From Candidatus Moraniibacteriota bacterium (GTDB lineage Bacteria; Patescibacteriota; Minisyncoccia; Moranbacterales; GCA-2747515): DNA of 64,000 nt. A program made the position numbers and the translations under genes. The stretch is taken from positions 833,734-897,733 of the forward strand of contig CP175956.1 in the NCBI GenBank assembly GCA_046116545.1. The letters are read 5' to 3'. The notes under the pieces are model-generated. The model was not told the DNA's origin and ran no database searches. It saw only the letters and a list, made by a program, of their open reading frames with translations. Shown in pieces: positions 13,647 to 54,213 of the stretch. Numbering within the stretch: the stretch's first letter is position 1; every line of letters starts with the position of its first letter.

Positions 13647-14309
13647 TCAACCAATATAGGCTAATCCTTTTTCTTTTAACTTACTACGTGCATTCGTCAT
13701 CAATGAACAAAATTCTTCCTCTGTAAGAATAGTGTCTGTTATATCACTTTTACCAATTGAATGAATAAGTTTTCTATTACGTGTTGCCAAAAGTGCAGCA
13801 ACTACATCCAAACTTATATTTTCTAGATCAAAAACTCGCTTAAGCAAATCCCAATATTCTTCCGAATCTCGCTTATAAGTTTTACCCTTCCAATATAATA
13901 TTTGATCTTTTTTCCAATTATTGTATTCTTGACCAGTCTTTTGTACTTCATAACCAGTTAGACTGCACAACCACAACTGTTCATTGAGAAACTTTGTTTT
14001 GAATGCTTGCAACAGCCCTTCCCGAGTTGCACAATAAACTCCATCAAAATAGAATGGACATTGATATAAATTGCTCAACAAATTTGCAGGATACTTACCA
14101 TGCGAATGAATGTCAATTGACTCATGTTTTTTTGCCACATCATACCCAACAAGTGAAAATGCAACAGTCACAAGTGGAACAAGCCACCATTTACTTATTG
14201 TATAACCGAACAATAAAACCTGACTTCCAGATTGGGTCACTAAAATAATATAGATTACTAATGTTCCTGTTAATCCAAATAATGCCCCCCTGCCGATTTT
14301 ACTTTTCAT
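13647..14309 (-). CDS. Membrane-anchored NADAR-domain (YbiA/DUF1768-like) protein
   Basis: N-terminal TM region, then ANLLSNLYQCPFYFDGVYCATREGLLQAFKTKF, which resembles the NADAR signature LSNF.P.PF..DG..Y.S.EH..QA.K. The start is taken at the internal MKSKIG. Confidence 0.5.
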   Translation of the reverse strand: MKSKIGRGALFGLTGTLVIYIILVTQSGSQVLLFGYTISKWWLVPLVTVAFSLVGYDVAKKHESIDIHSHGKYPANLLSNLYQCPFYFDGVYCATREGLLQAFKTKFLNEQLWLCSLTGYEVQKTGQEYNNWKKDQILYWKGKTYKRDSEEYWDLLKRVFDLENISLDVVAALLATRNRKLIHSIGKSDITDTILTEEEFCSLMTNARSKLKEKGLAYIG

Positions 14310-14360
14310 AATTAAACCTCCCAATTGCTATTTAATTTATTGTTCTGTTAACTTACTATC

Positions 14361-25861: not shown

Positions 25862-27334
25862 CTATTTCAATTTCTCTTTTAAAATCTCCATAACCATTTG
25901 AGGATTTGCCTTTCCTCCTGTTTCTTTCATTACTTGTCCCATAAGATATTTGATTGCATTCTCTTTTCCTGCTTTATAGTCATCAACAGATGACTGATTT
26001 GCAGCAAGTACATCATCAACATGCTTCTCTAACTCGCCTGAATCAGAAACTTGTGCTAGATTTTTTTCTTCAATTATATGACTTGGATCATCGTCATCGC
26101 CATAATACATTTCAGAAAGAACTGTTTGAGCAGCTGAAGAGTTAATTGTACCATCTGCAACAATTCCAATAAGTTCTGCGAAATTTTCTGCAGAAATACT
26201 AATATCTGTGATTTTTTGATTTTCTTTAGACATTATTCCCTGTAATTCTCCTACAAGATAATTTGCTGCAAGTTTAATTGCTTTTTGTATATCTGATTTC
26301 ATTTCACCAGACTTATTCTTATCCAGCAACTCACTTACCACATTCTCAAAAAATCCTGCAGTATCTTTATCAGCTGTTATAACTGCACAATTCCCTTCAC
26401 TAAGATCATATTCTTTTTTAAATCTTTCTTCTTTTTGATGCGGTAGCTCAGGTAAAGTTCTTTTTAATTCTTCAATATATTCATCTGTAAAAATCATTGG
26501 AGGAATATCTGGTTCTGGAAAATACCTATAATCATTTGCATTTTCTTTTTTACGCTGTGAAACAGTTTTACCTTTATTATCATCCCAACCACGAGTTTCT
26601 TGTGCGATTGACTCTCCAGCATCAAGAGCTTTTCCTTGTCTTATAATTTCAAATTCAATTGATTTTTCTACAACTTTAAATGAGTTAAGATTTTTAATCT
26701 CAACTTTTTGTCCGCTCAATTTATCTTCACCGTCTTTATAAAGAGAGACATTTACTTCACAACGCATCTGTCCTCGCTCCATATCCGCATCTGCAATATC
26801 AAGATAACGAAATACTTGCTGAATTTTTTGACAAAATAATCTAGCTTCTGCACCTGTTTTAATATCTGGTTCAGTTACAAGCTCCATAAGTGGCACTCCG
26901 GCACGATTCAAATCAACCAAAGTGTAATTAGCACCTTTTGGATGAGTTGATTTGCCTGTGTCTTCCTCCATATGAATACGAGTGATACCTATCTCCCTAT
27001 CACCTATAGTAATCTTACCAAGTCCACAAAGTGGCATATCAAATTGAGAAATCTGATACCCTTTTGGTAAATCAGGATAAAAATAATTCTTTCTATCAAA
27101 TTTACTTGTACGTGCAATTTCACAATTAAGTGCTAACCCCGCCTTTTGCACAAATTCAATAGCTTGCCTATTTGGCACAGGTAAACTTCCAGGTTGTGCA
27201 GTTGTCACTGGATCAATTGATACATTTGGCCTATCTTCCATACCCAAATGATTTGGAGCTGATGAAAACATTTTTGATTTAGTTTTCAACTCAACATGGA
27301 TTTCCATTCCCACTGTTACATTATATTTACTCAT
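25862..27334 (-). CDS. gatB: Asp/Glu-tRNA(Asn/Gln) amidotransferase subunit B
   Basis: YNVTVGMEIHVELKTKSKMFSSAP is the GatB N-terminal signature, with a C-terminal YqeY/GatB tail. Confidence 0.9.
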   Translation of the reverse strand: MSKYNVTVGMEIHVELKTKSKMFSSAPNHLGMEDRPNVSIDPVTTAQPGSLPVPNRQAIEFVQKAGLALNCEIARTSKFDRKNYFYPDLPKGYQISQFDMPLCGLGKITIGDREIGITRIHMEEDTGKSTHPKGANYTLVDLNRAGVPLMELVTEPDIKTGAEARLFCQKIQQVFRYLDIADADMERGQMRCEVNVSLYKDGEDKLSGQKVEIKNLNSFKVVEKSIEFEIIRQGKALDAGESIAQETRGWDDNKGKTVSQRKKENANDYRYFPEPDIPPMIFTDEYIEELKRTLPELPHQKEERFKKEYDLSEGNCAVITADKDTAGFFENVVSELLDKNKSGEMKSDIQKAIKLAANYLVGELQGIMSKENQKITDISISAENFAELIGIVADGTINSSAAQTVLSEMYYGDDDDPSHIIEEKNLAQVSDSGELEKHVDDVLAANQSSVDDYKAGKENAIKYLMGQVMKETGGKANPQMVMEILKEKLK

Positions 27335-27355: not shown

Positions 27356-27721
27356 TTATCTATTATCACCATCTCCATGTATTTTATTCCTCATCAATCT
27401 ACTTTGTGTCTTTTTGATATTACCCTCTGCGACATCATCCAAATTCAGATTTAATTCTGTAGCCAGCTGTGCAATATACCAGAGAACGTCTCCCAACTCC
27501 TTTGCAATCTCTGCACGTGTTTCATCATTTATTTTCCCACCTTTATCCCTAATAACTTTTTTAATTTTTTCTGCCACCTCGCCTGTTTCACCCGCAATTC
27601 CCAAAACTGGAAAAATAAAGTTGTTATCCTTATCTGGATAAACTGCATGTTTGCGTGTTTTCTTTTGATACTCACTAAACTTCATAATACTTTTAATCTT
27701 TATATTATCTACCTTATTCAA
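27356..27721 (-). CDS. MazG-like nucleoside triphosphate pyrophosphohydrolase (all-alpha NTP-PPase)
   Basis: FSEYQKKTRKHAVYP...LGIAGETGEVAEKIKKVIRDKGG...ELGDVLWYIAQLATELNLNLDDV is the MazG/dimeric-dUTPase-superfamily EExxE/D pattern. Confidence 0.75.
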   Translation of the reverse strand: MNKVDNIKIKSIMKFSEYQKKTRKHAVYPDKDNNFIFPVLGIAGETGEVAEKIKKVIRDKGGKINDETRAEIAKELGDVLWYIAQLATELNLNLDDVAEGNIKKTQSRLMRNKIHGDGDNR

Positions 27722-27727
27722 CTAATT

Positions 27728-28153
27728 TTATTTAAGCCCTGTGCTACCAAATCCACCGTCACCTCTTTGTGTCTCATCAAGTTCATCTACTTCTTCTATA
27801 ATAGGACATTCTACCCTTTGAATCAACATTTGTGCTATCTTATCTCCTTTATTTATTTTATAATCTTTTTTGGACAAATTTCTTATGATAACACCAATTT
27901 CACCACGATAATTACTATCAATTACACCACCCATTGTTTTAAGACCACCTTTAAAAGCAATGCCACTCTTATCCCAAATAAGCCCTACAAATCCGTCAGG
28001 GATTGCCATACTAATCCCAGTTTGACATGCTACTATGTCTCCAGGACTTAACACGATATCCTCAATAGAATATAACTCCATTGCAGCATCTCCTTCAATA
28101 GTATATTGTGGTAATTTTGCTTCTGGATTAATCTTTTTTATTTTAATATTCAT
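27728..28153 (-). CDS. dut: dUTP diphosphatase (trimeric dUTPase)
   Basis: AMELYS, GLIWDKSG, GVIDSNYRGEIGVIIRN and GDKIAQ are dUTPase motifs. Confidence 0.9.
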   Translation of the reverse strand: MNIKIKKINPEAKLPQYTIEGDAAMELYSIEDIVLSPGDIVACQTGISMAIPDGFVGLIWDKSGIAFKGGLKTMGGVIDSNYRGEIGVIIRNLSKKDYKINKGDKIAQMLIQRVECPIIEEVDELDETQRGDGGFGSTGLK

Positions 28154-28247: not shown

Positions 28248-29615
28248 TTATACCATCCGACGAGGAAAATAATCTCCATCATTCCTCAGTCTAATATCAC
28301 GCCCGCAGTAGCGATCACCTTCAGCACACTTTCCAAGCTCAAAGCAAGGTGGCTGAAACATCGCTAGGAGGTCTGAATTAATGCCACATTTTTTAGCAAC
28401 AGCTTCACGTTCCAAAACACCTAGATAATAAATTTCTTCTTGAGCACACCAGCAAAGCCTCTTGTACTGTTCATGCAAAATAGCATTAAAGGAGCCTTTT
28501 TTAATATACTCTACAACAGCACCATATGGTGCAAGTATCATTGCAAGAGTCCCTGGAACAGTTTTTTCAATTGAAATCCATTGACTCATAAGGTCACGCG
28601 CTCTACCTCCCAATCCTAATTTTTGCACTATTGGTGGTAAATAAAATGCACCTGTGAATTGTGGAGCACCTCTACGAATTGTACGATGTCTTTGATCTTG
28701 TCCCATAGTTGCCACTGACATTCCGACACATACCTCTATATCGCCAATAGAATTATTCATCATCTCTGGTGCAAAATGTGATTTATCAACTGGATGCATG
28801 ACGTCAGCATTTGGTTGCACAAAAACATGTTCATTTTGAACATTGCATGAAAAAATATATGGCTCAGTTGCAATCTCAATATCACTGTGTGATGGAGGCT
28901 GAACAAACCAATCGCCTTCACGACGTCTACTTTCATCAAATACATATGCAATATCTGGATATTTCTGAGAAAATGCACCTGCAATCTTTGCCGTAACATC
29001 CTTCATTGCTGGCGTCCACGCTTCTTCATACATCGCAACAAGAGCTGTGAGATTTAATGTAAAATCTAAAGCTGTTGGAAAAATGGTTGAAATAAACATG
29101 CGCAGTTGCTCCTGAGCAACCTTTGGCGCAATTTGTGCAACCATTTTATTCGCTATAAATGGACGTTCTTGTCGCAAAAAATCTGCAGCAATTTTATTTG
29201 CTTCAGATTTATTTTCCTGATAAATCTTCACGCCAAACTCTAAGTAACGTTCTATCTCCACAAGATCTCTTGATGATACCTGTGGCCAATACACACGAAC
29301 ATACTGCATCATTTTATCAAAGTCAGGCTCCGTAAACATCTTTGCAGCATATCGTCCACTCCGTTGGTCTGTGTTATAAAATGGACTTACTAGATGTAGT
29401 CCAAAAGTTACATCCCCAACAGCAATGCCATCAATACTATTTGTTCTATAAGCATCAGAATGTTGCATCGTTGTATGATGTGAAACACGGAACAACCTAT
29501 TTTCAACATCAATTTCTTTACCAACTTTTGGCACTGTCGATTGATAACATTGCAACGCAGCATGCGAAGCCGATTGTGTTGGCGTCATGTCTGGTAACAT
29601 TTCTACTTTAATCAT
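28248..29615 (-). CDS. thyX: Flavin-dependent thymidylate synthase ThyX-like; apparent tandem-fused (pseudo-dimeric) form
   Basis: 455 aa, about twice a typical ThyX. The N-half has HHTTMQH...FYNTDQRSGRY, which resembles the ThyX SxRY end of the RHRx7SxRY signature but lacks RHR. The C-half has ATMGQDQRHRTIRRG and CAQEEIYYLGVL, which resemble the ThyX RHR motif and AQWEI helix. GC is higher than in neighbouring genes. Confidence 0.5.
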   Translation of the reverse strand: MIKVEMLPDMTPTQSASHAALQCYQSTVPKVGKEIDVENRLFRVSHHTTMQHSDAYRTNSIDGIAVGDVTFGLHLVSPFYNTDQRSGRYAAKMFTEPDFDKMMQYVRVYWPQVSSRDLVEIERYLEFGVKIYQENKSEANKIAADFLRQERPFIANKMVAQIAPKVAQEQLRMFISTIFPTALDFTLNLTALVAMYEEAWTPAMKDVTAKIAGAFSQKYPDIAYVFDESRRREGDWFVQPPSHSDIEIATEPYIFSCNVQNEHVFVQPNADVMHPVDKSHFAPEMMNNSIGDIEVCVGMSVATMGQDQRHRTIRRGAPQFTGAFYLPPIVQKLGLGGRARDLMSQWISIEKTVPGTLAMILAPYGAVVEYIKKGSFNAILHEQYKRLCWCAQEEIYYLGVLEREAVAKKCGINSDLLAMFQPPCFELGKCAEGDRYCGRDIRLRNDGDYFPRRMV

Positions 29616-29631
29616 CTTTTACCACCTCCAA

Positions 29632-29895
29632 TTAAATTTGTTTGAGAAAAACTCTAAATTCAGAAACTTTTTCTTCAAATTTTTTGTATGTATGTTCCAT
29701 TTCTCTCTTTGCACACGTATCACATTTGTAATCCGCAAACCGTGGACAATTACAAAATGAACAAATAACCACTTGAAATTCTTTTGTTCCACCTTTTTTA
29801 CAAATGACTCCAATTAATTGAAGACCTTCTTTTTCTGCCCCGTCCTTAGATTCTTGACTAACAGTCTCTGGAATTGTCCATTTTTTATCACCCAC
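29632..29895 (-). CDS. Small Cys-rich zinc-ribbon-like protein immediately upstream of thyX-like gene
   Basis: VICSFCNCPRFADYKCDTCAK gives a CxxCxC...CxxC pattern. 87 aa. Confidence 0.4.
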   Translation of the reverse strand: MGDKKWTIPETVSQESKDGAEKEGLQLIGVICKKGGTKEFQVVICSFCNCPRFADYKCDTCAKREMEHTYKKFEEKVSEFRVFLKQI

Positions 29896-30114: not shown

Positions 30115-30672
30115 TTAACACACTTTTTTTGAATCAACTAGATCATCAACTTGCTTATGTAATTCTTCAACACTTCCACTATTATTTATAATGACATCAG
30201 CAAACTCTTTTAATCCTTTAACTTGTGCTTCTGATTCATTTTTGCTTTCTGCCTCAAATTCTTCAAATGTTTTATTTTGATCATCTACATTTTCACTTCT
30301 TTGAATAATTCTTTCATATCTTGTTCTAATATCAACATCTATATAAACAAGCTTAAATTCTGGCAATTCTTTTAAATATTTTATATCATCCATACGGCGA
30401 ACACCGTCAATTACAATGATTTCAGCAGCATCACTTTTTGCATCCTCAGCCATTACTCTTGCCATCGTATCTTCTCCATAAGTTTGACGAAGCATTGTTG
30501 AGAGATTTTGCAAGTTATCACGAGAATTTTCCAAATGCAATCTATCAAGAACATCTCTAAGCATTGTAGAAAAACGATGTTGTGAAGTGTCACATTTTTC
30601 ATTTAAATATTCTGATACTGTTCCTTTACCACTTGCCATTTCTCCTGCAAGTCCCAAAACCATTCTTGTCAT
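30115..30672 (-). CDS. P-loop deoxynucleoside monophosphate kinase, phage T4 gp1-like (paralog A)
   Basis: LGLAGEMASGKGTVSEYL P-loop and C-terminal INNSGSVEELHKQVDDL resemble T4 dNMP kinase (SGKDT ... NDGSLEEL). It is paralogous to the 31206-31778 gene, with a shared FEEFEAES segment. Confidence 0.55.
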   Translation of the reverse strand: MTRMVLGLAGEMASGKGTVSEYLNEKCDTSQHRFSTMLRDVLDRLHLENSRDNLQNLSTMLRQTYGEDTMARVMAEDAKSDAAEIIVIDGVRRMDDIKYLKELPEFKLVYIDVDIRTRYERIIQRSENVDDQNKTFEEFEAESKNESEAQVKGLKEFADVIINNSGSVEELHKQVDDLVDSKKVC

Positions 30673-30690: not shown

Positions 30691-31182
30691 TTATTTATCA
30701 ATCTTCTTTAACTCAATTCTATTTTGTGGTTCATATTGTCTCAACTTTATACCAGCTGTCTCAAGCATTTTTCTAGCTATTTTAAATATATCAATATTTG
30801 CATACTTATCCGAAACATAAATAACTTCTTTCACACCACTTTGGATAATTATTTTTGCACATTCATTACAAGGAAATAGACTTACATAAAGCCTGCAACC
30901 ACTTACATTATCATTTGCATTCATGATAGCATTTGCCTCAGCATGAACTACATAAGCATATTTTGATTCAGATGTCTCACCATCTCTGCACCAAGGTAAA
31001 TCATCATCATGACAGCCTCTAGGAAATCCATTATATCCAAGTCCTACTACAACATTTTCATTATTCACAATGCAAGACCCGACCTGAGTTGAAGGATCTT
31101 TTGAACGCATAGCTATGAGATTACTCATAAGTACAAATGTCTCATCCCAATCAAGATATTCTTGCCTTTTATCATTTTTCAT
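30691..31182 (-). CDS. dCMP deaminase (ComEB-type cytidine/deoxycytidylate deaminase)
   Basis: Zinc-binding HAEANAIMNA and LFPCNECAKIIIQSGVKEVIYVSD. The N-terminus reads WDETFVLMSNLIAMRSKDPSTQVGSCIV. Confidence 0.8.
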   Translation of the reverse strand: MKNDKRQEYLDWDETFVLMSNLIAMRSKDPSTQVGSCIVNNENVVVGLGYNGFPRGCHDDDLPWCRDGETSESKYAYVVHAEANAIMNANDNVSGCRLYVSLFPCNECAKIIIQSGVKEVIYVSDKYANIDIFKIARKMLETAGIKLRQYEPQNRIELKKIDK

Positions 31183-31205: not shown

Positions 31206-31778
31206 TTAATTACAACGTTTTTTTTGCAAAATATTTTTCATAGCATCATCAACTTGCCACAACAAATCATCCATGGATCCATCATTTTTTACAGTAAAAT
31301 CAGCATCTTTTCCAATTACTGGAATTGCCTTTTCTGTTTCTGATTCTGCTTCAAATTTTTTAAATTCATCGAAAGTCTGATCATCATCGCTCTTTTCACC
31401 ACGGCTAGTAACTCGTTTCCATCTCAACTCTTGATCAGCTGTTACATATATAATATAACTATCTTCAAATGATCTTATGAATTCAAGATCCATCATCATA
31501 CGCATACCATTAACACACATAATACCATGATGTTGATGTACATACCTCAATACACCTTTATGCAAAACATCTTCTCCAAAACGATCTTTAAACATACTAT
31601 ACAACCATGCTTGGTCTTCTTTTGAAGATTTATCAAAAAACAAATCCAATGTTTTTTTAAGTGGCATCCCAAATCGTAATAAATCAACATCGTATCGACG
31701 TTTCAAATAATGTGCAACTGTATCTTTCCCACTTCCAGTCTCCCCTACTAATCCAATGATGATTTTTTCATTATACAT
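31206..31778 (-). CDS. P-loop deoxynucleoside monophosphate kinase, phage T4 gp1-like (paralog B)
   Basis: IIGLVGETGSGKDTVAHYL closely matches the T4 gp1 FLSGVKRSGKDTTADFI. The C-terminal TVKNDGSMDDLLWQV matches ITNDGSLEELFSKI. Confidence 0.55.
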   Translation of the reverse strand: MYNEKIIIGLVGETGSGKDTVAHYLKRRYDVDLLRFGMPLKKTLDLFFDKSSKEDQAWLYSMFKDRFGEDVLHKGVLRYVHQHHGIMCVNGMRMMMDLEFIRSFEDSYIIYVTADQELRWKRVTSRGEKSDDDQTFDEFKKFEAESETEKAIPVIGKDADFTVKNDGSMDDLLWQVDDAMKNILQKKRCN

Positions 31779-39546: not shown

Positions 39547-39662
39547 TCTTTTACAAGTATCAAAATATCAAGCTTATCTATAGTCAATATTCTTGATTAA
39601 CTTTTTAATATTTGAAGTTTATATGTTATAATATTAATCGTAATAAAATAAAAAGAAAAATT

Positions 39663-40490
39663 ATGAAGAAAATTCTCATGATAGTAGCAGTTTTTTCAAT
39701 GTTATTATCTCCATTTACAACATTAGCATCTCCATCTGGCACGAATACTGACGATATTTATGTAACAGTTAAAGCAAAACAAGGTGGTGAATGGATAACT
39801 GCCTTCAAAGGCAAAACTGACGAAGATAGTGCATTGCGACTTAAGGGTGTGTTGCCAGGAAAGTATAAATTTGAAATAGATGAAGATGATGAAAAAGCTG
39901 GTCAAACACTTGGACTTGAATTAAAAATGAAAGATGAAGATGGAAAAAATATAAAAGAAAAGACTGATGTTGATGCATACATTTATATAGGAGATTCAAA
40001 AGTATTTATAAATAGATTTAGAACAAAAGATAATGGCTACTTAAATCTAGAAGGAATAACTCCTGGAATGACCTATGAATTAAAAGTAAAAGGAGATGGA
40101 AAAGTAAAAAAAGATGAAGGTCTCGCTAGAATGAAGACTAAGACAAAAATAGATGATAGTGATTGGTTTAGTTCTACATATGACTTACTTGATCCAGATC
40201 CAACAGGACTTACAAATGGAATTTTAGAAGTAGAAAATGTATTACCCGGTAAATATAAGTTCAAAGTAAAATCAGGAGATCCTTATGATGCAAGAAAGCC
40301 TTTCATGTTAAAAGCCAGACTGCGTAAAGATAATGGCAAAAAAATCAAAGAACCCACAAAAGTGAGCATCTATGCATATCCTAATAAAATCAAAACAAAA
40401 GTTGGAGAAGTTATGACTGACGCTAAAGGTTGGATACTACTTCCAGAAGTACAACCACATGTTAAATACAGACTTAAAGTAAAGGATTAG
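39663..40490 (+). CDS. Secreted protein with two CarboxypepD_reg/Cna-B-like beta-sandwich repeats
   Basis: Signal peptide MKKILMIVAVFSMLLSPFTTLA. Internal duplication: GVLPGKYKFEIDED... and NVLPGKYKFKVKSGD... A tataat lies at about 39628, inside the longer track ORF that starts at 39612. Confidence 0.5.
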   Translation: MKKILMIVAVFSMLLSPFTTLASPSGTNTDDIYVTVKAKQGGEWITAFKGKTDEDSALRLKGVLPGKYKFEIDEDDEKAGQTLGLELKMKDEDGKNIKEKTDVDAYIYIGDSKVFINRFRTKDNGYLNLEGITPGMTYELKVKGDGKVKKDEGLARMKTKTKIDDSDWFSSTYDLLDPDPTGLTNGILEVENVLPGKYKFKVKSGDPYDARKPFMLKARLRKDNGKKIKEPTKVSIYAYPNKIKTKVGEVMTDAKGWILLPEVQPHVKYRLKVKD

Positions 40491-40508
40491 ATAAAAAATT
40501 TAATTGTA

Positions 40509-40541
40509 GTGACAGAACAATGTTCTGTCACTTTTTTATTT
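40509..40541 (+). terminator. Intrinsic terminator after the 39663-40490 gene
   Basis: gtgacagaac-aatg-ttctgtcac followed by ttttttattt. It shares the TGTAGTG lead-in with the hairpins after LCP and topA. Confidence 0.65.
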
Positions 40542-40621
40542 ATCCTGATATTTAACATATCTTTCATGCAAAATTAAAAGCGGAGGAAAGATTTATCTTT
40601 CACTCCGCTTTTTACTTACAT

Positions 40622-42001
40622 TTAAAACTCCTTTTTAAATATAAGCATTACCCTTGAATCATCCTTGTGAGCACCAAAGATGTCTTCGATACCACTTGAA
40701 TTTGACTCACCATCAATATACTCTCCTCGTACTGTCAAAACAGTATTTTGAAAAAATGCATTCGTAGCCAAACTTGGCAATACAGCATCCAATACAGCCT
40801 CAGCATCTAGACGAAAATAGAAATCATCATCATTTAGACTTTTTGCCATACTTGGTCTGAATGTCACTCCATCACTAGGCGAATATTCTGCCATTGCAAC
40901 AAAATGATTATCAAGTGACCTACGAATATCAAGTTCAGATATTGAAATATCTGAATCATTTGTTGTAAAGCTATTTACATAACCCATCTCAACAAATAAA
41001 CTTGATCCATTTTCAAATTGCCAAATTCTGTCAACTTCTACAATACAAGTTGCAAAGTCATCAGATGACTCTTGAAAGTGTGCATTACAACCAAGTCTTG
41101 TCACCCACTCACCTAGTGTGAGCTCAGCACTTGCTGAAACTGAGGTTTCTTTGACAAAAACTGGAGCAAGTTCAACACCTTTACTTACCACGTGATCAAT
41201 TCCGCTGCCAGATCCATGAAAAATAGCTACTTCAAAAATTGTACCATTATCACGTTCTTGCCACATGCGACATAAATAGTTAACATCACTGCCAACTTCA
41301 ACATCACCATATGACATCCCTGGCTGTAAATCATGAGTCCAATGATCATTTGAACTAGTTGCTATCACTGGATTATTTCTCCCAGCAATAGCACACTCAC
41401 CAAACAAATTTGCGTCTCCAGACAATTTCATGGAGACATTAGCAACAATTACCCCATTCTGAGTATAATCATCCATTGTTGAAAATGGTTCCGATTGATC
41501 ACGACGTGCCAAAGCATTAAATTCTGCAAAATCAAAATTAACTGTATTTTGCATAATCTTTTTACCCAACACAATATTAAGTTCATCCATATTCATATCA
41601 GGAGTAAACTCAACATACATTTCCCGCATGCTCATGATAGTTTTTTTACCATCATGATTATCTAGTGTTGCCCCCTGATAAATATTAGCCGTATCACCCT
41701 GAATACGAACTGAAGCAATAATTGCAACATCTTCCGTTATTTGTGAATCAATACCTATATCAACTCTAACATCTGCAATTATATCATCTTTACCTTTTTC
41801 ATGATGATAAGCAGAAACTCGCGTTTCAATTTCTCCATATACTTCAATTTCCTGTGTAAAAAATACAGGCTCATCAGCATACAAAGCTTCTATTTCTTGC
41901 TTTTTTCTTTTTGAAGCAGCTGCAGAACCACGACTAACCTGAAGTGGCGCACAACTACTCAAAAGAAATGAAAGTAACACAACTAATGAAATATACTTCA
42001 T
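40622..42001 (-). CDS. Hypothetical lipoprotein (459 aa) in MMPL neighbourhood
   Basis: Lipobox LLSSCAP after a signal peptide. C-terminal ...VMLIFKKEF ends in an aromatic residue. No catalytic motif. Confidence 0.45.
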   Translation of the reverse strand: MKYISLVVLLSFLLSSCAPLQVSRGSAAASKRKKQEIEALYADEPVFFTQEIEVYGEIETRVSAYHHEKGKDDIIADVRVDIGIDSQITEDVAIIASVRIQGDTANIYQGATLDNHDGKKTIMSMREMYVEFTPDMNMDELNIVLGKKIMQNTVNFDFAEFNALARRDQSEPFSTMDDYTQNGVIVANVSMKLSGDANLFGECAIAGRNNPVIATSSNDHWTHDLQPGMSYGDVEVGSDVNYLCRMWQERDNGTIFEVAIFHGSGSGIDHVVSKGVELAPVFVKETSVSASAELTLGEWVTRLGCNAHFQESSDDFATCIVEVDRIWQFENGSSLFVEMGYVNSFTTNDSDISISELDIRRSLDNHFVAMAEYSPSDGVTFRPSMAKSLNDDDFYFRLDAEAVLDAVLPSLATNAFFQNTVLTVRGEYIDGESNSSGIEDIFGAHKDDSRVMLIFKKEF

Positions 42002-42009
42002 ATTTCCTC

Positions 42010-42828
42010 CTATCTACCACATGGCAGAGAGCTTTTATTATATGACTTTGGCCAATCATTGAAATTCAGATCTTCATTATCCTGAACTAAATGAGTTCCT
42101 TTTTCTTTAATATCCCAAACAAAAATTTCTGTAGGATACCATTTGCCATCAACATAATCTACTAAAACATTTTCAATTATATAGGAATCAAAATAAATTC
42201 CTTTTATACTAAAATGCTCTTTGTCAATTGCCGCAGTATATCCTGGCAATTTTCCTGTACTTACAGCTTTCACTACGAATACATCAGAAAAACCAAATGT
42301 ATTATCCTCTGTAAACTCATATTTAAATGAATCAGAAGATAATTCAATGCCAGTTTGCATAACCGTCATAGCCCAAGAGCTATTAATGCTACTATCCACT
42401 GTACTGTGTCCTGCTAATGATGTTGTGATACGACGAGCACCCTTACGAGCTAATCGTCCTCTGCAAAAGTATCGAGACGAATCACTCAGATTATCAGGAT
42501 TTAACTTTACAACTAAACCCTTGTTTTTCACCTGCTTCGGAGCAAAGAAATGCAACCAAATGCCATCTTTACCAGAATCATCAAAATACAATGATTGGGC
42601 AAATTGTTTTTCGGCACCTTTCAATGAGTAACATTGTTCGATATCCAAAAAATTATCACATCCATCCCTATATTCATAATCCTGAACACGCCAAAGCGTA
42701 TTTTCTTGTCCAACAATTCGTCGCCCTTGCCAAGTTTTTTCAATAACCTGACGAGCTGTTAATTCCGCAAAGGAATTGATTGGTACAAAAAAACAAATTA
42801 CTAAAACTGCATAAATAATTTTTCTCAT
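42010..42828 (-). CDS. Secreted LolA-like / lipoprotein-sorting-like protein (hypothetical) adjacent to MMPL transporter
   Basis: Signal peptide MRKIIYAVLVICFFVPINSFA. The size, secretion signal and position next to an MMPL/RND gene fit the LolA-like proteins commonly paired with MMPL exporters. This is weak inference. Confidence 0.35.
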   Translation of the reverse strand: MRKIIYAVLVICFFVPINSFAELTARQVIEKTWQGRRIVGQENTLWRVQDYEYRDGCDNFLDIEQCYSLKGAEKQFAQSLYFDDSGKDGIWLHFFAPKQVKNKGLVVKLNPDNLSDSSRYFCRGRLARKGARRITTSLAGHSTVDSSINSSWAMTVMQTGIELSSDSFKYEFTEDNTFGFSDVFVVKAVSTGKLPGYTAAIDKEHFSIKGIYFDSYIIENVLVDYVDGKWYPTEIFVWDIKEKGTHLVQDNEDLNFNDWPKSYNKSSLPCGR

Positions 42829-42882
42829 TTTAATCTCCCTTTTCTTGAATGTAATGGGTGAACATTGTTCACCCATTACAAT

Positions 42883-45339
42883 TTATTTTGACGAACAACA
42901 CCACCGTAAAAACGGTAATGACAGTAAAGTACCCAGATAACAACCTACTAATGCCACTAGAAGCATTAAACCAAGATTAATAATCGGCTTAAATGCCACT
43001 AAAAATGGCATGGCAAGCGGTAAATACGTCAACGCATTAACAAGTACATCAGCACCAGCACGCGTCACCTCGTCTACCATATCATCTGAAACAAGATTCT
43101 TCTCAAAATCCCATCCATATTGTGCAATAACCTGTCTAAATCTCAAAATCAGAAATACAGGCAAATCTGCAGCAGCTGACACAGTAATATTACCAATTGC
43201 AGCCGTAGCAATATCCAAATAAATACCAAACATCATCATAACAATGAGTGTTAAAGTAGTGGACACAACAAACGGAACAATGACAATAGCACCAGCTACA
43301 AGCGGATTGAATCCGCTCACAATGCTAACTCTTCCAATTATCAAAAACAAAATTACACTTAACACACCAATGAGTACAGGAGAACCAACATAGTTCCCTA
43401 TAGCACCCACAGTTATCAAGTCATCTGTTTCTGGATATTGAGCAGTTTTATCAACACCTACGACACCAATATCGCTACCCAAGTCAGCAAGAGCATCCCT
43501 AACATAACGCATGTCACTAGCTTTCGAAGCCAAACCCGTCACATTTATGATGACTGAATTGTCCTCAAGTACAAAGAAATATTTTGACACATTTTCTTGT
43601 GCGACAAGGCCCCACTCTTCTGCAAGCAATTCTTCTACTGAAATTTCAAACTCAGTAGATATCTTGCTAAGAACATCTTCTCTCATACAATCACTTGGTG
43701 AATTACAAAAATCATAAAAATCTCTGTGTAATACATCACCCAGAAAATCAGTTGGAGAAATTATGCCTCGAGCAAAACTATTATTGCGAACATCGCTAAC
43801 AAACTTACTAAGATTTTCAACATCAGTAGCATTGCATAAATCCAAATCTTCTACAAAGATTTTATACAATCCACTACCCGGTTGACCTTCATTTTCAAGT
43901 GAATCCATTACTACACCCGCAGATGTAGCTCGCACAAATGCACCAGGATCACTATCAGTCACAAGCAACTTCATGTTATACAAACCGACTGTAAGCATAA
44001 TTAGAGCCATGACTACCATTGCATTAATGAGCCAACTATATTTTTTGACAGAAAATTTGACAATAGACTGTACAAAAAAAGAAGTCTCCAATTGTGCAGA
44101 TTCTTTGCCAAGTCCGCCCACAAAACAATGTATCACAGGTAAAATTACCCTAGTAACCGGAATAGTAAAAACTACAATAGACACTGTTGCCAAAATAGCA
44201 ACCGTTAACATCGAACGAGCCCCTTCTATGTGTGGCAGTAACATAAATATCAAAAATTCAATACATGTTACTATCACAACAAAATATACGGAACTTTTTA
44301 ATGTATATTCCCTCAAAACAATATTCCAAAAAAATTGTCTATTTGCAAAAATTCTACTAGAAATTCCCTGACTCACAAAACTATACGCCAATGTATTATA
44401 TTCCTTAAAATGCCTCATAAAAAATGAGTAATTCAGCATCATAACTGGAATATAAGCTAATATTGTATATGTTTCCTCATGAAAGGAAAAATTTGTTACC
44501 AAGTCAATTACACCTATAAGTCCACGCATCATCCAAAGGATAGATACATTACAAATAAGTGAAATGAACATTTGTCGGAATGAGCCCAAAATAATCCATA
44601 TGGTAATCGCTGGTAATAATGAACCAACAATGAGTACACTAAAAATGAAAGAGAAACTTTCCTTATTTATAAGTGTACGCCACACGGACCACCCAAATAC
44701 ATCAACTTGAATATTCTCTCCAAAATCAACCTTAGTCAATTTTGTTGACAAACCAAGCCATTTTCTCAAATCATCAAAATACATATCAATCATAACAAAG
44801 TCATGATTATACATAATACTATGAGAAATTTGATACAATTTAAATTCATTCACATCTTGATTTACCGGCATGACCGATATAAAAAAAGAATATTCACCAT
44901 TGTAACTATTCACAAATACATTATTCATGTAATCATGTGATGCTACACTTTCAAACCATTCTTTTCCACTACTGTTTTTGATACTATTTTCTGATAGAAA
45001 ATAATCAACAGGATCAGAGGAATAATCTGTAATTGTTGCAACTGATGCTACATTTACTACTATGTCATTTGCTTCAAAAACAGTCTTAACTCTTTTTGAA
45101 AAATCAATAATAAACTGTCTAGATTTATCAGATAAATTCTTAACAGTTATACGAAATAAAACATCATTAGATAAAATCACATCAGCATTCTTTGCATTTG
45201 ATTGTGCTATAACAAATCTACTTTCATTATTAAGCACAGGCTCCATCAACACACTATCTAAGCGTGTTAACCACAAATTACTATAACTTGCCAAGGCAAG
45301 TACAATAATATAAATACACAAAAATATGTATTTTTTCAT
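42883..45339 (-). CDS. MMPL/RND-superfamily transporter (two 6-TM bundles, each preceded by a large extracytoplasmic domain)
   Basis: 818 aa. N-terminal TM, ~200-aa soluble domain, TM cluster (~aa 230-430), second soluble domain, second TM cluster (~aa 640-810). This is typical MmpL/HpnN topology. Confidence 0.7.
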   Translation of the reverse strand: MKKYIFLCIYIIVLALASYSNLWLTRLDSVLMEPVLNNESRFVIAQSNAKNADVILSNDVLFRITVKNLSDKSRQFIIDFSKRVKTVFEANDIVVNVASVATITDYSSDPVDYFLSENSIKNSSGKEWFESVASHDYMNNVFVNSYNGEYSFFISVMPVNQDVNEFKLYQISHSIMYNHDFVMIDMYFDDLRKWLGLSTKLTKVDFGENIQVDVFGWSVWRTLINKESFSFIFSVLIVGSLLPAITIWIILGSFRQMFISLICNVSILWMMRGLIGVIDLVTNFSFHEETYTILAYIPVMMLNYSFFMRHFKEYNTLAYSFVSQGISSRIFANRQFFWNIVLREYTLKSSVYFVVIVTCIEFLIFMLLPHIEGARSMLTVAILATVSIVVFTIPVTRVILPVIHCFVGGLGKESAQLETSFFVQSIVKFSVKKYSWLINAMVVMALIMLTVGLYNMKLLVTDSDPGAFVRATSAGVVMDSLENEGQPGSGLYKIFVEDLDLCNATDVENLSKFVSDVRNNSFARGIISPTDFLGDVLHRDFYDFCNSPSDCMREDVLSKISTEFEISVEELLAEEWGLVAQENVSKYFFVLEDNSVIINVTGLASKASDMRYVRDALADLGSDIGVVGVDKTAQYPETDDLITVGAIGNYVGSPVLIGVLSVILFLIIGRVSIVSGFNPLVAGAIVIVPFVVSTTLTLIVMMMFGIYLDIATAAIGNITVSAAADLPVFLILRFRQVIAQYGWDFEKNLVSDDMVDEVTRAGADVLVNALTYLPLAMPFLVAFKPIINLGLMLLVALVGCYLGTLLSLPFLRWCCSSK

Positions 45340-45445: not shown

Positions 45446-45516
45446 TGCACGGGATGAGGGAATCGAACCCCCGACTCAGGTTTTGGAGACCCACGTTATA
45501 CCACTTAACCAATCCC
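45446..45516 (-). tRNA. tRNA-Trp (anticodon CCA), CCA tail not encoded
   Basis: Minus strand reads GCGGGAT..TGGGT-CTCCAAA-ACCTG..GGGGG-TTCGATT-CCCTC-ATCCCGT. Anticodon loop C-U-CCA-A-A. 71 nt. Confidence 0.8.
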
Positions 45517-45568
45517 GCTTTATCTCTCGTATTATCTTACATCTTTTTACTATTTTATTCAAGTCTTG

Positions 45569-45642
45569 AGCCAATGAGCAGAATCGAACTGCTGACCTTA
45601 TCCTTACCATGGATACGCTGCTACCAACTGAGCTACATTGGC
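45569..45642 (-). tRNA. tRNA-Thr (anticodon GGU), CCA not encoded, discriminator U
   Basis: Minus strand reads GCCAATG-TAGCTCAGTTGGTAGCAGC-GTATCC-ATGGTAA-GGATA-AGGTC-AGCAG-TTCGATT-CTGCT-CATTGGC-T. Confidence 0.8.
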
Positions 45643-45693
45643 AAAAAAGAAAACCGAAGATTCTAAACTTCGGCATTTCCCTTACATAATCTG

Positions 45694-45776
45694 TGGGCCG
45701 AGAGGGATTTGAACCCCCGTAGACCGAAGTCGCCTGATTTACAGTCAGGTGCATTTGACCACTCTGCCACCGACCC
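45694..45776 (-). tRNA. tRNA-Tyr (anticodon GUA) with long variable arm
   Basis: Minus strand reads GGGTCGG..CCTGA-CTGTAAA-TCAGG-CGACTTCGGTCTAC-GGGGG-TTCAAAT-CCCTC-TCGGCCC-A. 83 nt, bacterial type-II Tyr architecture. Confidence 0.85.
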
Positions 45777-45807
45777 GATGACTAATATTCTATTATCTGA
45801 ATCACTG

Positions 45808-45880
45808 AGCCACTTGTCAGATTCGAACTGACGACCTGCGGTTTACAAAACCGATGCTCTACCAACTGAGCTAAAGTGGC
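45808..45880 (-). tRNA. tRNA-Thr (anticodon UGU), discriminator U
   Basis: Minus strand reads GCCACTT-TAGCTCAGTTGGTAGAGC-A-TCGGT-TTTGTAA-ACCGC-AGGTC-GTCAG-TTCGAAT-CTGAC-AAGTGGC-T. Confidence 0.75.
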
Positions 45881-53697: not shown

Positions 53698-54213
53698 TTA
53701 TAAACTCTCTATTTCTTCTTCCAGTAATTTAAAAGTATTTGTAATATCTTCTTTTTGATTTTTACTTATATAATTCTCAAATAATCCATTCTCAAATGAA
53801 CGAACAAATCTATTAATAAAAAGTGGTGTATTTCTTGTATCATCAAAATATTTTATTATCTTATAGTCTGGTGAAAAAAACATATGCACTGTTGTATCCT
53901 CTTGATAAAAACCCGTTTGTTTAGATATATTTAATGCAATTTCCTCCAAGTCTCGCAATGCTACACCAATATCTTCTTTTTCTTGTTTGCTAAATTGCTT
54001 TTCATTTAAAATATCAATATATTCCTCAAAGTCTTTTTGTATTATTTGCAAATCAATAATATTTTTATTCATCTTATTATAATGATCTTCTTGTTCACTA
54101 ACAACAATCATTGAAACATACTCCAAACCATTTTGACACACCAAAGCAACCACAATTGATGTAGTCACAAAACAGACACAAATAAAACTAATTATAAATA
54201 TTTTCTTTTTCAT
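53698..54213 (-). CDS. Hypothetical membrane-anchored protein
   Basis: N-terminal TM KIFIISFICVCFVTTSIVVALV. 171 aa. Confidence 0.35.
   Translation of the reverse strand: MKKKIFIISFICVCFVTTSIVVALVCQNGLEYVSMIVVSEQEDHYNKMNKNIIDLQIIQKDFEEYIDILNEKQFSKQEKEDIGVALRDLEEIALNISKQTGFYQEDTTVHMFFSPDYKIIKYFDDTRNTPLFINRFVRSFENGLFENYISKNQKEDITNTFKLLEEEIESL

What the first reader, a model, noticed from the sequence alone, without database searches (positions are those of the whole stretch)
28248..29615. ThyX-like gene of double length with complementary motif degeneration in its two halves (candidate fused pseudo-dimer)
Typical ThyX is ~220-250 aa with the signature RHRx7-8SxRY. Here one 455-aa ORF has the SxRY end in its N-half (FYNTDQRSGRY) but no RHR. 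The C-half has the RHR (QDQRHRTIRRG) and an AQEEI helix like ThyX AQWEI, but no SxRY.

ThyX active sites are built across subunit interfaces. A tandem fusion could therefore let each half lose a different motif while one composite site survives. That would be a neat case of subfunctionalised internal duplication.

The gene also has visibly higher GC than its neighbours.
Basis: partly seen in the sequence, partly recalled or inferred. Interest (0 to 1): 0.65.

Follow-up and report, generated by a model that had tools for sequence, protein, structure and literature searches.

The report
Double-length ThyX with split active-site motifs
This gene from a tiny uncultured (Patescibacteria) bacterium encodes a thymidylate-synthase-like enzyme made of two fused ThyX-type domains, each of which keeps only the catalytic residues the other has lost; one chain therefore probably does the work of two subunits, and it also has an undescribed four-cysteine site.

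Summary
The 455-aa ORF (28248-29615, minus strand) is a real, conserved gene in a Candidatus Moraniibacteriota genome.

Both halves have the ThyX fold. The N-half matches canonical ThyX by profile comparison (98% probability, E 3e-14). The C-half, modelled alone, hits only ThyX crystal structures (Foldseek E 4e-7).

The motif split is exact and invariant in 224 relatives. The N-half keeps Ser86/Arg88/Tyr89, Arg172 and His46/Thr48. The C-half keeps Arg309-His310-Arg311 and Arg386. In solved ThyX tetramers these two residue sets come from different subunits of one active site. A dimer of fused chains should therefore have two live and two dead sites.

Gene neighbours support dTMP synthesis: dCMP deaminase, dUTPase and nucleotide kinases here, plus thymidylate kinase and SHMT in relatives.

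The architecture is not new. Roughly 510-540-aa relatives occur in at least 566 species genomes, and a 2009 paper noted an uncharacterised "domain duplication". I found no description of the complementary degeneration or of the invariant Cys4 site.

The higher GC is real but ordinary. Quaternary structure, activity and metal content are untested.

The parts
28248..29615 (-). Whole gene: 455-aa tandem ThyX-like protein (stop codon 28248-28250)
   Evidence: ORF list. 100% identical database protein from Candidatus Moraniibacteriota. Pfam Thy1 in two stretches. AF2 full-length model pLDDT 88.5, pTM 0.90.
29625..29629 (-). Shine-Dalgarno GGAGG, 9 nt upstream of the ATG
   Evidence: Sequence read and coordinate check.
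28926..29615 (-). N-half ThyX-fold domain (residues 1-230). It keeps the 'gamma/beta-role' residues and has lost RHR and the Arg174 equivalent.
   Evidence: hhalign against canonical ThyX: 95.8% and 98.3%, E 2.6e-14. Pfam best stretch 10-197.
29469..29480 (-). H46-H47-T48-T49, equivalent to T. maritima G-H53-E-T55 (the flavin/folate-stacking His and the FAD-phosphate Thr/Ser supplied by the third subunit)
   Evidence: Alignments. H46 in 224/224 and T48 in 217/224 relatives. Role from PMC6514825 and PMC11940539.
29394..29402 (-). G72-L73-H74 at the position of the canonical RHR motif (motif lost; H74 invariant)
   Evidence: hhalign. Column counts: G/F/L, never R, at position 72.
29349..29360 (-). 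S86-G87-R88-Y89, equivalent to T. maritima S88-G89-R90-Y91 (dUMP-binding and catalytic loop)
   Evidence: hhalign. S86 and R88 in 224/224; Y/F at position 89.
29100..29102 (-). R172, equivalent to T. maritima R147
   Evidence: hhalign. 224/224 conserved.
28878..28925 (-). Inter-domain linker (residues 231-246), modelled with high confidence
   Evidence: pLDDT blocks of 94-97 in the AF2 model.
28371..28877 (-). C-half ThyX-fold domain (residues 247-415). It keeps the 'alpha-role' residues and has lost the Ser/Arg/Tyr loop, the R147 equivalent and the His53 motif.
   Evidence: C-half-only AF2 model against the PDB: 156 hits at E<1e-3, and all 50 listed are ThyX or ThyX-fold entries. hhalign E 8.6e-5, collinear.
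28683..28691 (-). R309-H310-R311, the ThyX RHR motif (FAD phosphate/ribityl, isoalloxazine and dUMP contacts)
   Evidence: Aligned on T. maritima R78-H79-R80. 224/223/224 of 224 conserved. Role from PMC6514825.
28431..28463 (-). K385-R386-L-C388-W-C390-A-Q-E-E-I395. R386 is equivalent to T. maritima R174 (dUMP contact). C388 is the first ligand of the Cys4 site. C390 sits at the position of T. maritima H178.
   Evidence: hhalign. R386 in 224/224, C388 in 223/224, C390 in 142/224.
28251..28370 (-). C-terminal extension absent from canonical ThyX (residues 416-455), carrying C424, C430 and C437 (28305-28346)
   Evidence: C424, C430 and C437 in 224/224 relatives. Also invariant in the distant long group. 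Lower pLDDT of 62-70 around the cysteines.
27728..28153 (-). dUTPase, immediately downstream (supplies dUMP)
   Evidence: Pfam PF00692, E 5e-32. The same adjacency is seen in relatives L084, L001 and L002.
27356..27721 (-). MazG-type nucleotide pyrophosphohydrolase
   Evidence: Pfam PF03819. Also next to the gene in L086 and L087.
29632..29895 (-). Small Cys-rich ORF (87 aa; CSFCNC...CDTC) directly upstream, with its own GGAGG. Function unknown; probably co-transcribed.
   Evidence: ORF list, sequence. No Pfam or NCBIfam hit.
30115..30672 (-). P-loop nucleoside/nucleotide kinase-like protein
   Evidence: Pfam AAA_17/AAA_18 and weak DNMK. NCBIfam PRK08356-like.
30691..31182 (-). dCMP deaminase (supplies dUMP)
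   Evidence: Pfam PF00383, E 1.9e-23. Conserved next to the gene in L084, L086 and L087.
31206..31778 (-). Second P-loop deoxynucleotide-monophosphate-kinase-like protein
   Evidence: Pfam DNMK PF21448 at 30.7 bits, above its cut-off.

Best explanation
The gene encodes a flavin-dependent thymidylate synthase (ThyX/FDTS) of a fused, two-domain type.

Each chain is a pseudo-heterodimer of two ThyX-fold domains that have divided the active-site residues between them. The C-half supplies the 'alpha' set: the RHR motif (R309-H310-R311), which holds the FAD phosphates, the isoalloxazine ring and dUMP, plus R386 (equivalent to T. maritima R174). The N-half supplies the 'gamma' set: the S86/R88/Y89 loop and R172, which bind and activate dUMP. 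The N-half also supplies the 'beta' set, H46/T48 (equivalent to H53/T55).

A canonical D2 homotetramer builds each site from three subunits. A dimer of these fused chains would therefore reproduce the tetramer, but with only two competent sites. Each live site would be made from one C-half and both N-halves. The two sites that would need RHR from an N-half and Ser/Arg/Tyr from a C-half would be dead.

The enzyme sits in a deoxypyrimidine operon. dCMP deaminase and dUTPase would feed it dUMP, and kinases would take the dTMP onward.

What is shown: the fold of both halves, the residue partition and its conservation, and the gene context. What is inferred: the dimer-of-pseudo-dimers assembly, the number of live sites, FAD and folate use, and dTMP synthesis. 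An invariant Cys4 site next to the R386 helix probably binds a metal; its role is unknown.
For: Fold:
- Pfam Thy1 matches in two stretches above the cut-off.
- N-half against a canonical ThyX profile: 98.3%, E 2.6e-14. C-half: E 8.6e-5, collinear.
- Full-length AF2 model: pLDDT 88.5, pTM 0.90. Its top 50 PDB matches are ThyX or ThyX-fold entries.
- C-half model alone: 156 PDB hits at E<1e-3, best E 3.5e-7; all 50 listed are ThyX or ThyX-fold entries.

Residue partition, counted in 224 full-length relatives at 21-84% identity:
- N-half: S86, R88, R172, H46 and H74 are 100% conserved, and position 72 (equivalent to R78) is never Arg.
- C-half: R309, R311, R386 and H381 are 100% conserved, and H310 is 223/224.

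Subunit roles in solved ThyX structures: RHR plus the Arg174-type arginine come from subunit A, Ser/Thr55 and Arg165 from subunit B, and the Ser/Arg/Tyr loop from subunit C (PMC6514825). His53 comes from the third monomer, and Ser88 and Tyr91 are critical for activity (PMC11940539).

Gene context:
- In the window: dCMP deaminase, dUTPase, MazG and two nucleotide-kinase-like genes.
- In relatives: SHMT - dCMP deaminase - kinase - thymidylate kinase - ThyX - dUTPase (L084), and dCMP deaminase - kinase - ThyX - thymidylate kinase - MazG (L086 and L087).
- dUTPase sits next to distant archaeal-type and phage-type relatives.

Link to canonical ThyX: the distant 510-522-aa relatives P0366 and P0377 pass NCBI's ThyX equivalog model TIGR02170 (110 bits against a cut-off of 87.9, two stretches).
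Against: - The window protein itself scores only 8.6 bits on TIGR02170. It has no significant sequence match to any PDB chain.
- Neither half alone carries the defining RHRx7-8S motif.
- Some canonical contacts are missing from both halves: the Arg165 equivalent is T190 in the N-half and I379 in the C-half. The gamma-subunit phosphate-binding Arg (M. tuberculosis R87 / T. maritima R74) is V66/D68 in this subfamily, although it is Arg in the long relatives.
- I could not inspect model coordinates, so the relative packing of the two halves and the proximity of S86/R88 to R309/R386 are not shown.
- No folate-pathway gene lies in this 64-kb window.
- One relative's genome carries two different tandem Thy1 genes side by side (L087), so not every tandem ThyX-like protein need be the dTMP synthase.
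- No member of this fused class has been shown here to be biochemically characterised.
Confidence: 0.7

Rival explanations
1. Same architecture, different origin. The protein arose by fusion of two already diverged thyX paralogues, an ancestral alpha2-beta2 heterotetramer, and not by internal tandem duplication followed by subfunctionalisation.
For: The two halves show no detectable similarity to each other, even profile against profile (probability 0.1-0.6%). The N-half is much closer to canonical ThyX (E 2.6e-14) than the C-half is (E 8.6e-5).
Against: No separately encoded N-like or C-like half genes were found. The 'half-length' database hits I checked were a contig-edge fragment (L088) and an assembly with a duplicated ~78-nt stretch that splits the gene (L089). 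Three lineages of fused forms share the same domain order and the same motif split, which points to a single old fused ancestor either way.
Confidence: 0.3
2. It is a ThyX-fold flavoenzyme with a different substrate or chemistry, for example a PolB-like UMP/dUMP C5-methylase or another pyrimidine-nucleotide modification, and not the cell's dTMP synthase.
For: It is very divergent from canonical ThyX (TIGR02170 8.6 bits). PolB, a UMP/dUMP methylase, is among the structural matches (4p5b). One dUMP-phosphate-binding Arg is missing. There is an extra invariant Cys4 site. Some Patescibacteria carry a second, different tandem Thy1 gene next to this one.
Against: Every residue known to contact the uracil and deoxyribose phosphate of dUMP and the flavin that could be mapped is invariant in one half or the other. 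The conserved neighbours are exactly the dUMP suppliers (dCMP deaminase, dUTPase), thymidylate kinase and, in L084, SHMT. No other Thy1 or ThyA gene lies in the window.
Confidence: 0.12
3. It is a bona fide ThyX in which all four sites, or sites built differently from the scheme above, remain active because other residues (for example R314/R315 after the RHR motif, and H74) substitute for the lost ones.
For: R315 is conserved in 202/224 relatives and H74 in 224/224. The long relatives also keep an Arg in the loop after RHR.
Against: Ser88 and Tyr91 are reported as critical for activity (PMC11940539) and have no counterpart in the C-half. The N-half lacks both arginines of RHR and the Arg174 equivalent in all 224 sequences.
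Confidence: 0.06
4. It is a catalytically dead ThyX relic or a regulatory or nucleotide-binding protein.
For: Neither half has a complete ThyX motif. The match to ThyX family models is weak.
Against: The complementary catalytic residues are strictly invariant across hundreds of sequences and several phyla. Operon context is conserved. It is the only thymidylate-synthase-like gene seen in these loci.
Confidence: 0.03

Closest known systems
Canonical single-domain ThyX / FDTS (T. maritima TM0449, PDB 1O26/1KQ4; M. tuberculosis 2AF6/3GWC; H. pylori 3N3Y)
   Same: Both halves have the same fold. All mappable active-site residues are present somewhere in the chain: RHR, the Arg174 type, Ser88/Arg90/Tyr91, Arg147 and His53/Thr55. 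The role in deoxypyrimidine metabolism, judged by gene context, is the same.
   Different: There are two domains per chain instead of one. The ThyX motif RHRx7-8S is split between the domains, so a dimer would replace the homotetramer and only two of the four sites are predicted to be competent. It has an extra C-terminal extension with an invariant Cys4 site. Sequence similarity is very low (TIGR02170 8.6 bits; no phmmer hit to the PDB).
'Duplicated-domain' ThyX of Chloroflexi and other phyla (about 485-545 aa), annotated as FAD-dependent thymidylate synthase
   Same: Homologous over the full length (E 1e-25 to 1e-33). It has the same domain order, the same complementary motif split and the same four conserved cysteines. 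dUTPase is a neighbour in the two loci examined. [quoted passage not shown]
   Different: The window protein belongs to a compact (~455 aa) Patescibacteria subfamily, judged by the organism names on database hits. Its inter-domain region is shorter, it has lost the N-half 'SR' arginine (V66), it has an extra Cys (C390), and it no longer reaches the ThyX equivalog score, whereas the long forms P0366 and P0377 score 110 bits. The long forms are found in at least 566 species genomes of Acidobacteriota, Ignavibacteriota, Planctomycetota, Verrucomicrobiota, Chloroflexota and others, and in Microgenomates.
Double-length phage 'thymidylate synthases' (e.g. Microcystis phage LMM01, 491 aa; BFVD)
   Same: The predicted structures align over the whole length with the window model (520 columns, E 2.5e-9). 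A related 523-aa protein lies on a phage-like contig beside ribonucleotide reductase and a dUTPase (L003).
   Different: Only 11-12% sequence identity. The annotation is by similarity only. I did not examine the motif pattern or the Cys site in these viral proteins.
PolB (UMP/dUMP C5-methylase of polyoxin biosynthesis, PDB 4P5A/4P5B) and other atypical ThyX structures (C. glutamicum 3GE9; T. thermophilus 6J61 with an extra C-terminal domain)
   Same: ThyX fold, and among the best structural matches. They show that the fold tolerates altered specificity and added domains.
   Different: They are single-domain homo-oligomers with a complete motif in each subunit. None has a split motif or a Cys4 site.
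Chlamydial ThyX
   Same: From my memory only: chlamydial ThyX proteins are about 530 aa and C. trachomatis ThyX is enzymatically active. Its activity assay is mentioned in PMC3498832. If it is of the fused type, it would be the characterised representative of this class.
   Different: Not verified here. The length and architecture of the chlamydial enzyme could not be checked with the tools. My attempt to reach it through P0384 found Microgenomates proteins instead.

Membership tests
ThyX / flavin-dependent thymidylate synthase (Pfam PF02511, TIGR02170) | ThyX (Thy1) fold | tested here: met
   Met twice. N-half: hhalign 98.3%. C-half model: Foldseek E 3.5e-7 to ThyX structures, 156 hits. Pfam PF02511: 28 bits against a cut-off of 24.8.
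ThyX / flavin-dependent thymidylate synthase (Pfam PF02511, TIGR02170) | ThyX motif RHRx7-8S(xRY) within one domain | tested here: not met
   The N-half has GLH...SGRY. The C-half has RHR, but the Ser/Arg/Tyr loop is shortened and lost. The motif is complete only when both halves are combined.
ThyX / flavin-dependent thymidylate synthase (Pfam PF02511, TIGR02170) | Score above NCBI's equivalog cut-off (TIGR02170, 87.9 bits) | tested here: not met
   8.6 bits for the window protein. The homologous long forms P0366 and P0377 reach about 110 bits, and P0379 and P0384 reach 83 and 71 bits.
ThyX / flavin-dependent thymidylate synthase (Pfam PF02511, TIGR02170) | Full set of active-site residues (RHR, Arg174, Ser88, Arg90, Tyr91, Arg147, His53, Thr55, Arg165; T. 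maritima numbering) | tested here: inconclusive
   All except the Arg165 equivalent are present and invariant in one half or the other. A gamma-subunit phosphate Arg (M. tuberculosis R87) is absent in this subfamily.
ThyX / flavin-dependent thymidylate synthase (Pfam PF02511, TIGR02170) | D2 tetrameric arrangement with active sites at three-subunit interfaces | not testable with these tools
pTM 0.90 shows that the two halves are placed confidently relative to each other, but the type of interface is unknown.
ThyX / flavin-dependent thymidylate synthase (Pfam PF02511, TIGR02170) | FAD-bound enzyme converting dUMP + CH2-THF + NAD(P)H to dTMP | not testable with these tools
   Needs biochemistry or genetic complementation.
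ThyX / flavin-dependent thymidylate synthase (Pfam PF02511, TIGR02170) | Genomic association with dUMP supply and dTMP use | tested here: met
   dCMP deaminase, dUTPase, MazG and dNMP-kinase-like genes lie in the same operon. Thymidylate kinase and SHMT lie in relatives' operons.
ThyX / flavin-dependent thymidylate synthase (Pfam PF02511, TIGR02170) | Sole thymidylate synthase of the genome (no ThyA) | not tested
   Only the 64-kb window could be scanned. It holds no ThyA or second Thy1.
Fused two-domain ('duplicated') ThyX | Two ThyX domains in one chain, N-type then C-type, homologous over the full length to the ~510-aa forms | tested here: met
   Profile search hits 485-528-aa proteins over both halves at E 1e-25 to 1e-33. 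The motif pattern is shared.
Fused two-domain ('duplicated') ThyX | Four conserved cysteines (R-L-C ... C ... C-x-E-G ... C-G) in the C-half and its extension | tested here: met
   C388, C424, C430 and C437 are conserved in 223-224 of 224 sequences and invariant in the long group. Metal binding itself is not testable here.

The most novel reading that the evidence does not exclude
The invariant Cys4 site comprises C388, two residues after the dUMP-binding R386 on the active-site helix, plus C424, C430 and C437 in a C-terminal extension that canonical ThyX lacks. The most novel reading is that it binds a redox-active iron-sulfur cluster sitting close to the flavin. This cluster would wire the fused ThyX to a ferredoxin-type or other low-potential electron donor. 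That would make it a thymidylate synthase whose flavin is reduced through an Fe-S relay and not, or not only, by NAD(P)H. The two 'dead' sites would be repurposed to house this relay. A structural zinc site is the more ordinary and more likely alternative.
Probability: 0.12. Interest if true: 0.8.

Novelty: new variant of a known kind. Interest (0 to 1): 0.5.

Why it matters
ThyX is an essential enzyme of DNA-precursor synthesis and a sought-after antibiotic target. Its hallmark is an active site built across three subunits.

A natural fused form would show how an obligate homo-oligomer can evolve into an asymmetric pseudo-hetero-oligomer, with half its sites abandoned. In this form each domain has irreversibly kept only one side of the shared site, and the pattern is invariant across hundreds of lineages. 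It also gives a ready-made system for asking which subunit contributes what to catalysis. Otherwise that question requires mixed-mutant tetramers.

Practically, the Patescibacteria subfamily falls below the curated ThyX model, and this copy is labelled 'hypothetical protein'. Metabolic reconstructions of these reduced genomes may therefore wrongly score thymidylate synthesis as absent.

The conserved Cys4 site, if it binds a metal, would be a new cofactor element in this enzyme family.

Tried and rejected
1. Direct evidence for internal duplication. Profile-profile comparison of the N-half against the C-half gave nothing, with either the 40-sequence or the 224-sequence profile. 'Duplication' as opposed to 'fusion' stays open.

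2. Sequence search against PDB chains with the protein found nothing. The family profile gave only marginal ThyX matches at E about 0.03. Fold comparison was needed.

3. The AlphaFold-database fold library (afdb50) was not available, so no named full-length structural neighbours from cellular organisms were obtained.

4. Model coordinates are not exposed, so I could not measure whether the N-half Ser/Arg/Tyr loop faces the C-half RHR, nor whether the four cysteines cluster.

5. Looking for naturally split genes. The half-length database hits checked were a contig-edge fragment (L088) and a gene broken by a duplicated ~78-nt stretch in a poor assembly (L089).

6. I suspected a compensatory swap of an arginine between the N-half (position 66) and the C-half (position 315). 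Inspecting the sequences showed that the long group also has an Arg in that C-half loop and that MAFFT had misaligned it. Claim dropped.

7. I suspected a FolC next to a DapB at the window's end, as a folate link. NCBIfam shows it is MurF.

8. I tried to confirm from the literature or databases that chlamydial ThyX is a characterised member of the fused class. The key papers are not held, and the 528-aa lead (P0384) turned out to belong to Microgenomates. This remains unverified recollection.

9. Literature searches for a fused or tandem ThyX, or for an Fe-S or Zn ThyX, found only the one-sentence remark in PMC3224940.

10. Foreign origin suggested by GC was rejected, because GC3 is within one sd of the window mean.
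Full report
**What is there**

The ORF at 28248-29615 on the minus strand is 455 codons long and starts with ATG. A GGAGG ribosome-binding site lies 9 nt upstream. An identical protein is on record from a 1.29-Mb contig of a Candidatus Moraniibacteriota (Patescibacteria/CPR) genome, labelled 'hypothetical protein'. A search of 5.8 billion proteins found 858 homologues. The best 120 are about 441-494 aa (most 450-470), and those that carry an organism name come from Patescibacteria. A few are named 'FAD-dependent thymidylate synthase'.

**Are both halves ThyX?**

- Pfam Thy1 (PF02511) matches the whole protein in two stretches at 28 bits, against a gathering score of 24.8. The C-half alone is only marginal (E 0.23).
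- NCBI's ThyX equivalog model scores 8.6 bits against a cut-off of 87.9.
- No PDB chain is matched by sequence.

This is therefore a very divergent relative, and stronger methods were needed.

I built a family alignment (A1). I also built a canonical ThyX alignment seeded with the T. maritima sequence (A2). I had recalled that sequence from memory and verified it as identical to PDB 1KQ4/1O26.

- Profile against profile, the N-half matches canonical ThyX at 95.8%. With a 224-sequence profile this rises to 98.3%, E 2.6e-14, over 192 columns.
- The C-half gives E 0.011, improving to E 8.6e-5. In both cases the alignment is collinear over the whole domain. RHR aligns on RHR, FYLPP on FYIP, and KRLCWCAQEEI on LRADSHAQWEI.
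- An AlphaFold2 model of the full protein is confident (pLDDT 88.5, pTM 0.90). Its 50 best PDB matches are ThyX or ThyX-fold entries.
- To test the C-half on its own, I modelled residues 232-455 separately (pLDDT 85.7). Foldseek then gave 156 PDB hits at E<1e-3. All 50 listed are ThyX or ThyX-fold entries (best E 3.5e-7, about 210 of 224 residues aligned, TM about 0.52).

The two halves have no detectable similarity to each other.

**The motif split**

Mapped onto T. maritima numbering (for M. tuberculosis):

| Half | Kept | Lost |
|---|---|---|
| N-half | H46/T48/H52 (= H53/T55/H59); S86-G87-R88-Y89 (= S88-G89-R90-Y91); R172 (= R147) | RHR is replaced by G72-L73-H74; no counterpart of R174 |
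| C-half | Q306 (= Q75); R309-H310-R311 (= RHR); R386 (= R174) | The Ser/Arg/Tyr loop is shortened; no R147; no His53 motif |

I aligned 224 full-length relatives spanning 21-84% identity to the query.

- S86, R88, R172, H46, H74, R309, R311, R386 and H381 are conserved in 224/224. H310 is conserved in 223/224.
- The N-half position equivalent to R78 is never arginine.

This is far beyond chance and shows selection on both partial motifs.

**Why the split makes sense**

In solved ThyX tetramers each active site is built from three subunits (PMC6514825 section 3.1).

- Subunit A gives the RHR motif (FAD phosphates and ribityl, isoalloxazine, dUMP) and the Arg174-type arginine (dUMP).
- Subunit B gives the Ser/Thr55 and Arg165 contacts to the FAD phosphates.
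- Subunit C gives the Ser/Arg/Tyr loop that binds dUMP and covers the reacting atoms.

His53 comes from the third monomer, and Ser88 and Tyr91 are critical for activity (PMC11940539). The C-half has thus kept exactly the 'A' role, and the N-half exactly the 'C' role plus the His/Thr of the 'B' role.

I worked through the D2 symmetry by my own inference. With sites (A,B,C), (B,A,D), (C,D,A) and (D,C,B), only one assignment satisfies all three roles: the two C-halves occupy positions A and D, and the two N-halves occupy B and C. That gives two competent sites per dimer of fused chains, each made from one C-half and both N-halves, and two dead sites. I could not check this against the model because coordinates are not exposed.

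**Function from context**

The gene sits in a minus-strand run:

dNMP-kinase-like (31206-31778) - dCMP deaminase (30691-31182) - kinase-like (30115-30672) - small Cys-rich ORF (29632-29895) - this gene - dUTPase (27728-28153) - MazG (27356-27721) - GatB (25862-27334)

Relatives repeat and extend the pattern:

- L084: SHMT - dCMP deaminase - kinase - thymidylate kinase - ThyX - dUTPase - GatB.
- L086 and L087: dCMP deaminase - kinase - ThyX - thymidylate kinase - MazG - GatB.

These neighbours make dUMP, make CH2-THF and consume dTMP, which argues strongly for thymidylate synthesis. One relative (L085) lacks this context. No ThyA, second Thy1, SHMT or FolD lies in the window. The rest of the genome could not be examined.

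**How widespread, and is it known?**

An exhaustive profile search of 1.84 billion cluster representatives found 721 clusters at E<=1e-3 and 130 at E<=1e-30. The more distant ones are 485-528 aa and match over both halves. They show the same split (N-half LHSHPFYN..Q.SQRY; C-half SQ.QRHR ... RLC.NAQEEI). Two of the four tested pass the TIGR02170 cut-off (110 bits, two stretches), which links the window protein to bona fide ThyX annotation.

They include Acidobacteriota, Ignavibacteriota, Bacteroidota, Planctomycetota, Verrucomicrobiota, Chloroflexota, Nitrospirota and Gemmatimonadota. Other occurrences:

- a ~540-aa version in Microgenomates;
- one 522-aa member on an archaeal-looking contig beside a dUTPase (L001);
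- one 523-aa member on a phage-like contig beside ribonucleotide reductase and a dUTPase (L003);
- double-length phage 'thymidylate synthases' that align structurally over the full length.

In the literature available to me, only Valas & Bourne (2009) mention that Chloroflexi ThyX 'contains a domain duplication' and that it 'has not been characterized' (PMC3224940). Searches for a description of the split motif or of a metal site found nothing. My recollection that chlamydial ThyX is about 530 aa, and might therefore be a characterised member, could not be verified.

**The cysteine site**

Four cysteines are conserved in 223-224 of 224 sequences: C388 (R-L-C, two residues after R386), C424, C430 (C-x-E-G) and C437 (C-G). 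They are invariant in the distant long group too. Three of them lie in a C-terminal extension that canonical ThyX lacks. The model is least confident exactly there (pLDDT 62-70), as is common for metal sites modelled without the metal. I infer a Cys4 metal site. Structural zinc is the ordinary reading. An Fe-S cluster near the flavin is the interesting one. Neither is tested.

**Caveats**

- The Arg165 equivalent is not conserved in either half.
- The gamma-subunit phosphate-binding arginine (M. tuberculosis R87) is Val in this subfamily, although it is Arg in the long forms.
- One Patescibacteria locus carries, right next to a member of this family, a second tandem Thy1 gene of a third lineage (449 aa). 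That lineage has the same N/C motif split but no cysteines, and is homologous to the long form at 95.8% over 310 columns. Functional diversification among fused ThyX-like proteins is therefore possible.
- Whether the ancestor was an internal duplication or a fusion of paralogues is unresolved. Apparent half-genes were artefacts.

**GC**

The gene's GC (0.395) exceeds that of its immediate neighbours, but it ranks 6th of 52 ORFs in the window. GC3 is ordinary at 0.261, against 0.233 +/- 0.049. This is not a sign of recent transfer.

**Verdict**

This is a fused pseudo-dimeric ThyX in which the two domains have complementary, invariant halves of the active site. It most likely works as a dimer with two composite sites and makes dTMP within a deoxypyrimidine operon.

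The fused architecture is widespread and has been noticed before, so this is a divergent variant of a known kind. I did not find the complementary degeneration or the Cys4 site described anywhere, and both are directly testable.

Noticed in passing
window 28305-28346 and 28446-28454 (C424, C430, C437; C388, C390): Four cysteines are invariant across the whole fused-ThyX superfamily (223-224 of 224 sequences; also in the ~510-aa group). They lie beside the R386 active-site helix and in a C-terminal extension absent from canonical ThyX. This is a candidate Zn or Fe-S site that I did not find described.
   Followed up: partly
L087:3508-4857 (next to L087:5001-6356): One Patescibacteria genome carries two different tandem Thy1 genes side by side. 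The extra 449-aa protein has the same split (N-half ...QEASTRY, C-half ...LQRHR) but no Cys site. It represents a third fused lineage: hhalign 95.8% to the ~510-aa group and no match to the window family.
   Followed up: partly
L001:8001-9569 and L003:8001-9572: Fused ThyX relatives also occur on an archaeal-looking contig (ATP-dependent DNA ligase, ABCE1-like, TrmB; dUTPase adjacent). They occur as well on a phage-like contig (ribonucleotide reductase, dUTPase_2, Dam methylase). BFVD holds full-length structural matches from phages, for example Microcystis phage LMM01.
   Followed up: partly
window 29632-29895 (-): An 87-aa Cys-rich ORF (CSFCNC...CDTC, zinc-ribbon-like) with its own GGAGG lies 16 nt upstream of the ThyX gene. 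It has no family match, and no equivalent was seen in the relatives' loci examined.
   Followed up: partly
window 13647-14324 (-): A 225-aa protein matches Pfam Phage_30_3 (bacteriophage T4 gp30.3 family, E 1.4e-36) in a bacterial chromosome context, between DNA topoisomerase I and RNase HII/DnaE. It has no NCBIfam match.
   Followed up: no
window 39612-45339 and 53698-58950: Two runs of sizeable ORFs have no Pfam match at E<=1e-5. The first run holds ORFs of 292, 459, 288 and 818 aa. The second holds ORFs of 171, 461, 347, 151 and 447 aa and lies among glycosyltransferase, O-antigen ligase and Wzz genes. Several in the second run have the highest GC in the window.
   Followed up: no
L089:880-1000: A ~78-nt stretch is repeated in tandem inside a homologue's gene and splits it into two ORFs. 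This is probably an assembly artefact and could be mistaken for a naturally split ThyX.
   Followed up: yes
window 45447-45880 (-) and 62204-62276 (-): A cluster of four tRNA genes (Trp-CCA, Thr-GGT, Tyr-GTA, Thr-TGT) and a separate tRNA-Glu-CTC. ARAGORN finds five tRNAs where Rfam's gathering threshold reports four.
   Followed up: no
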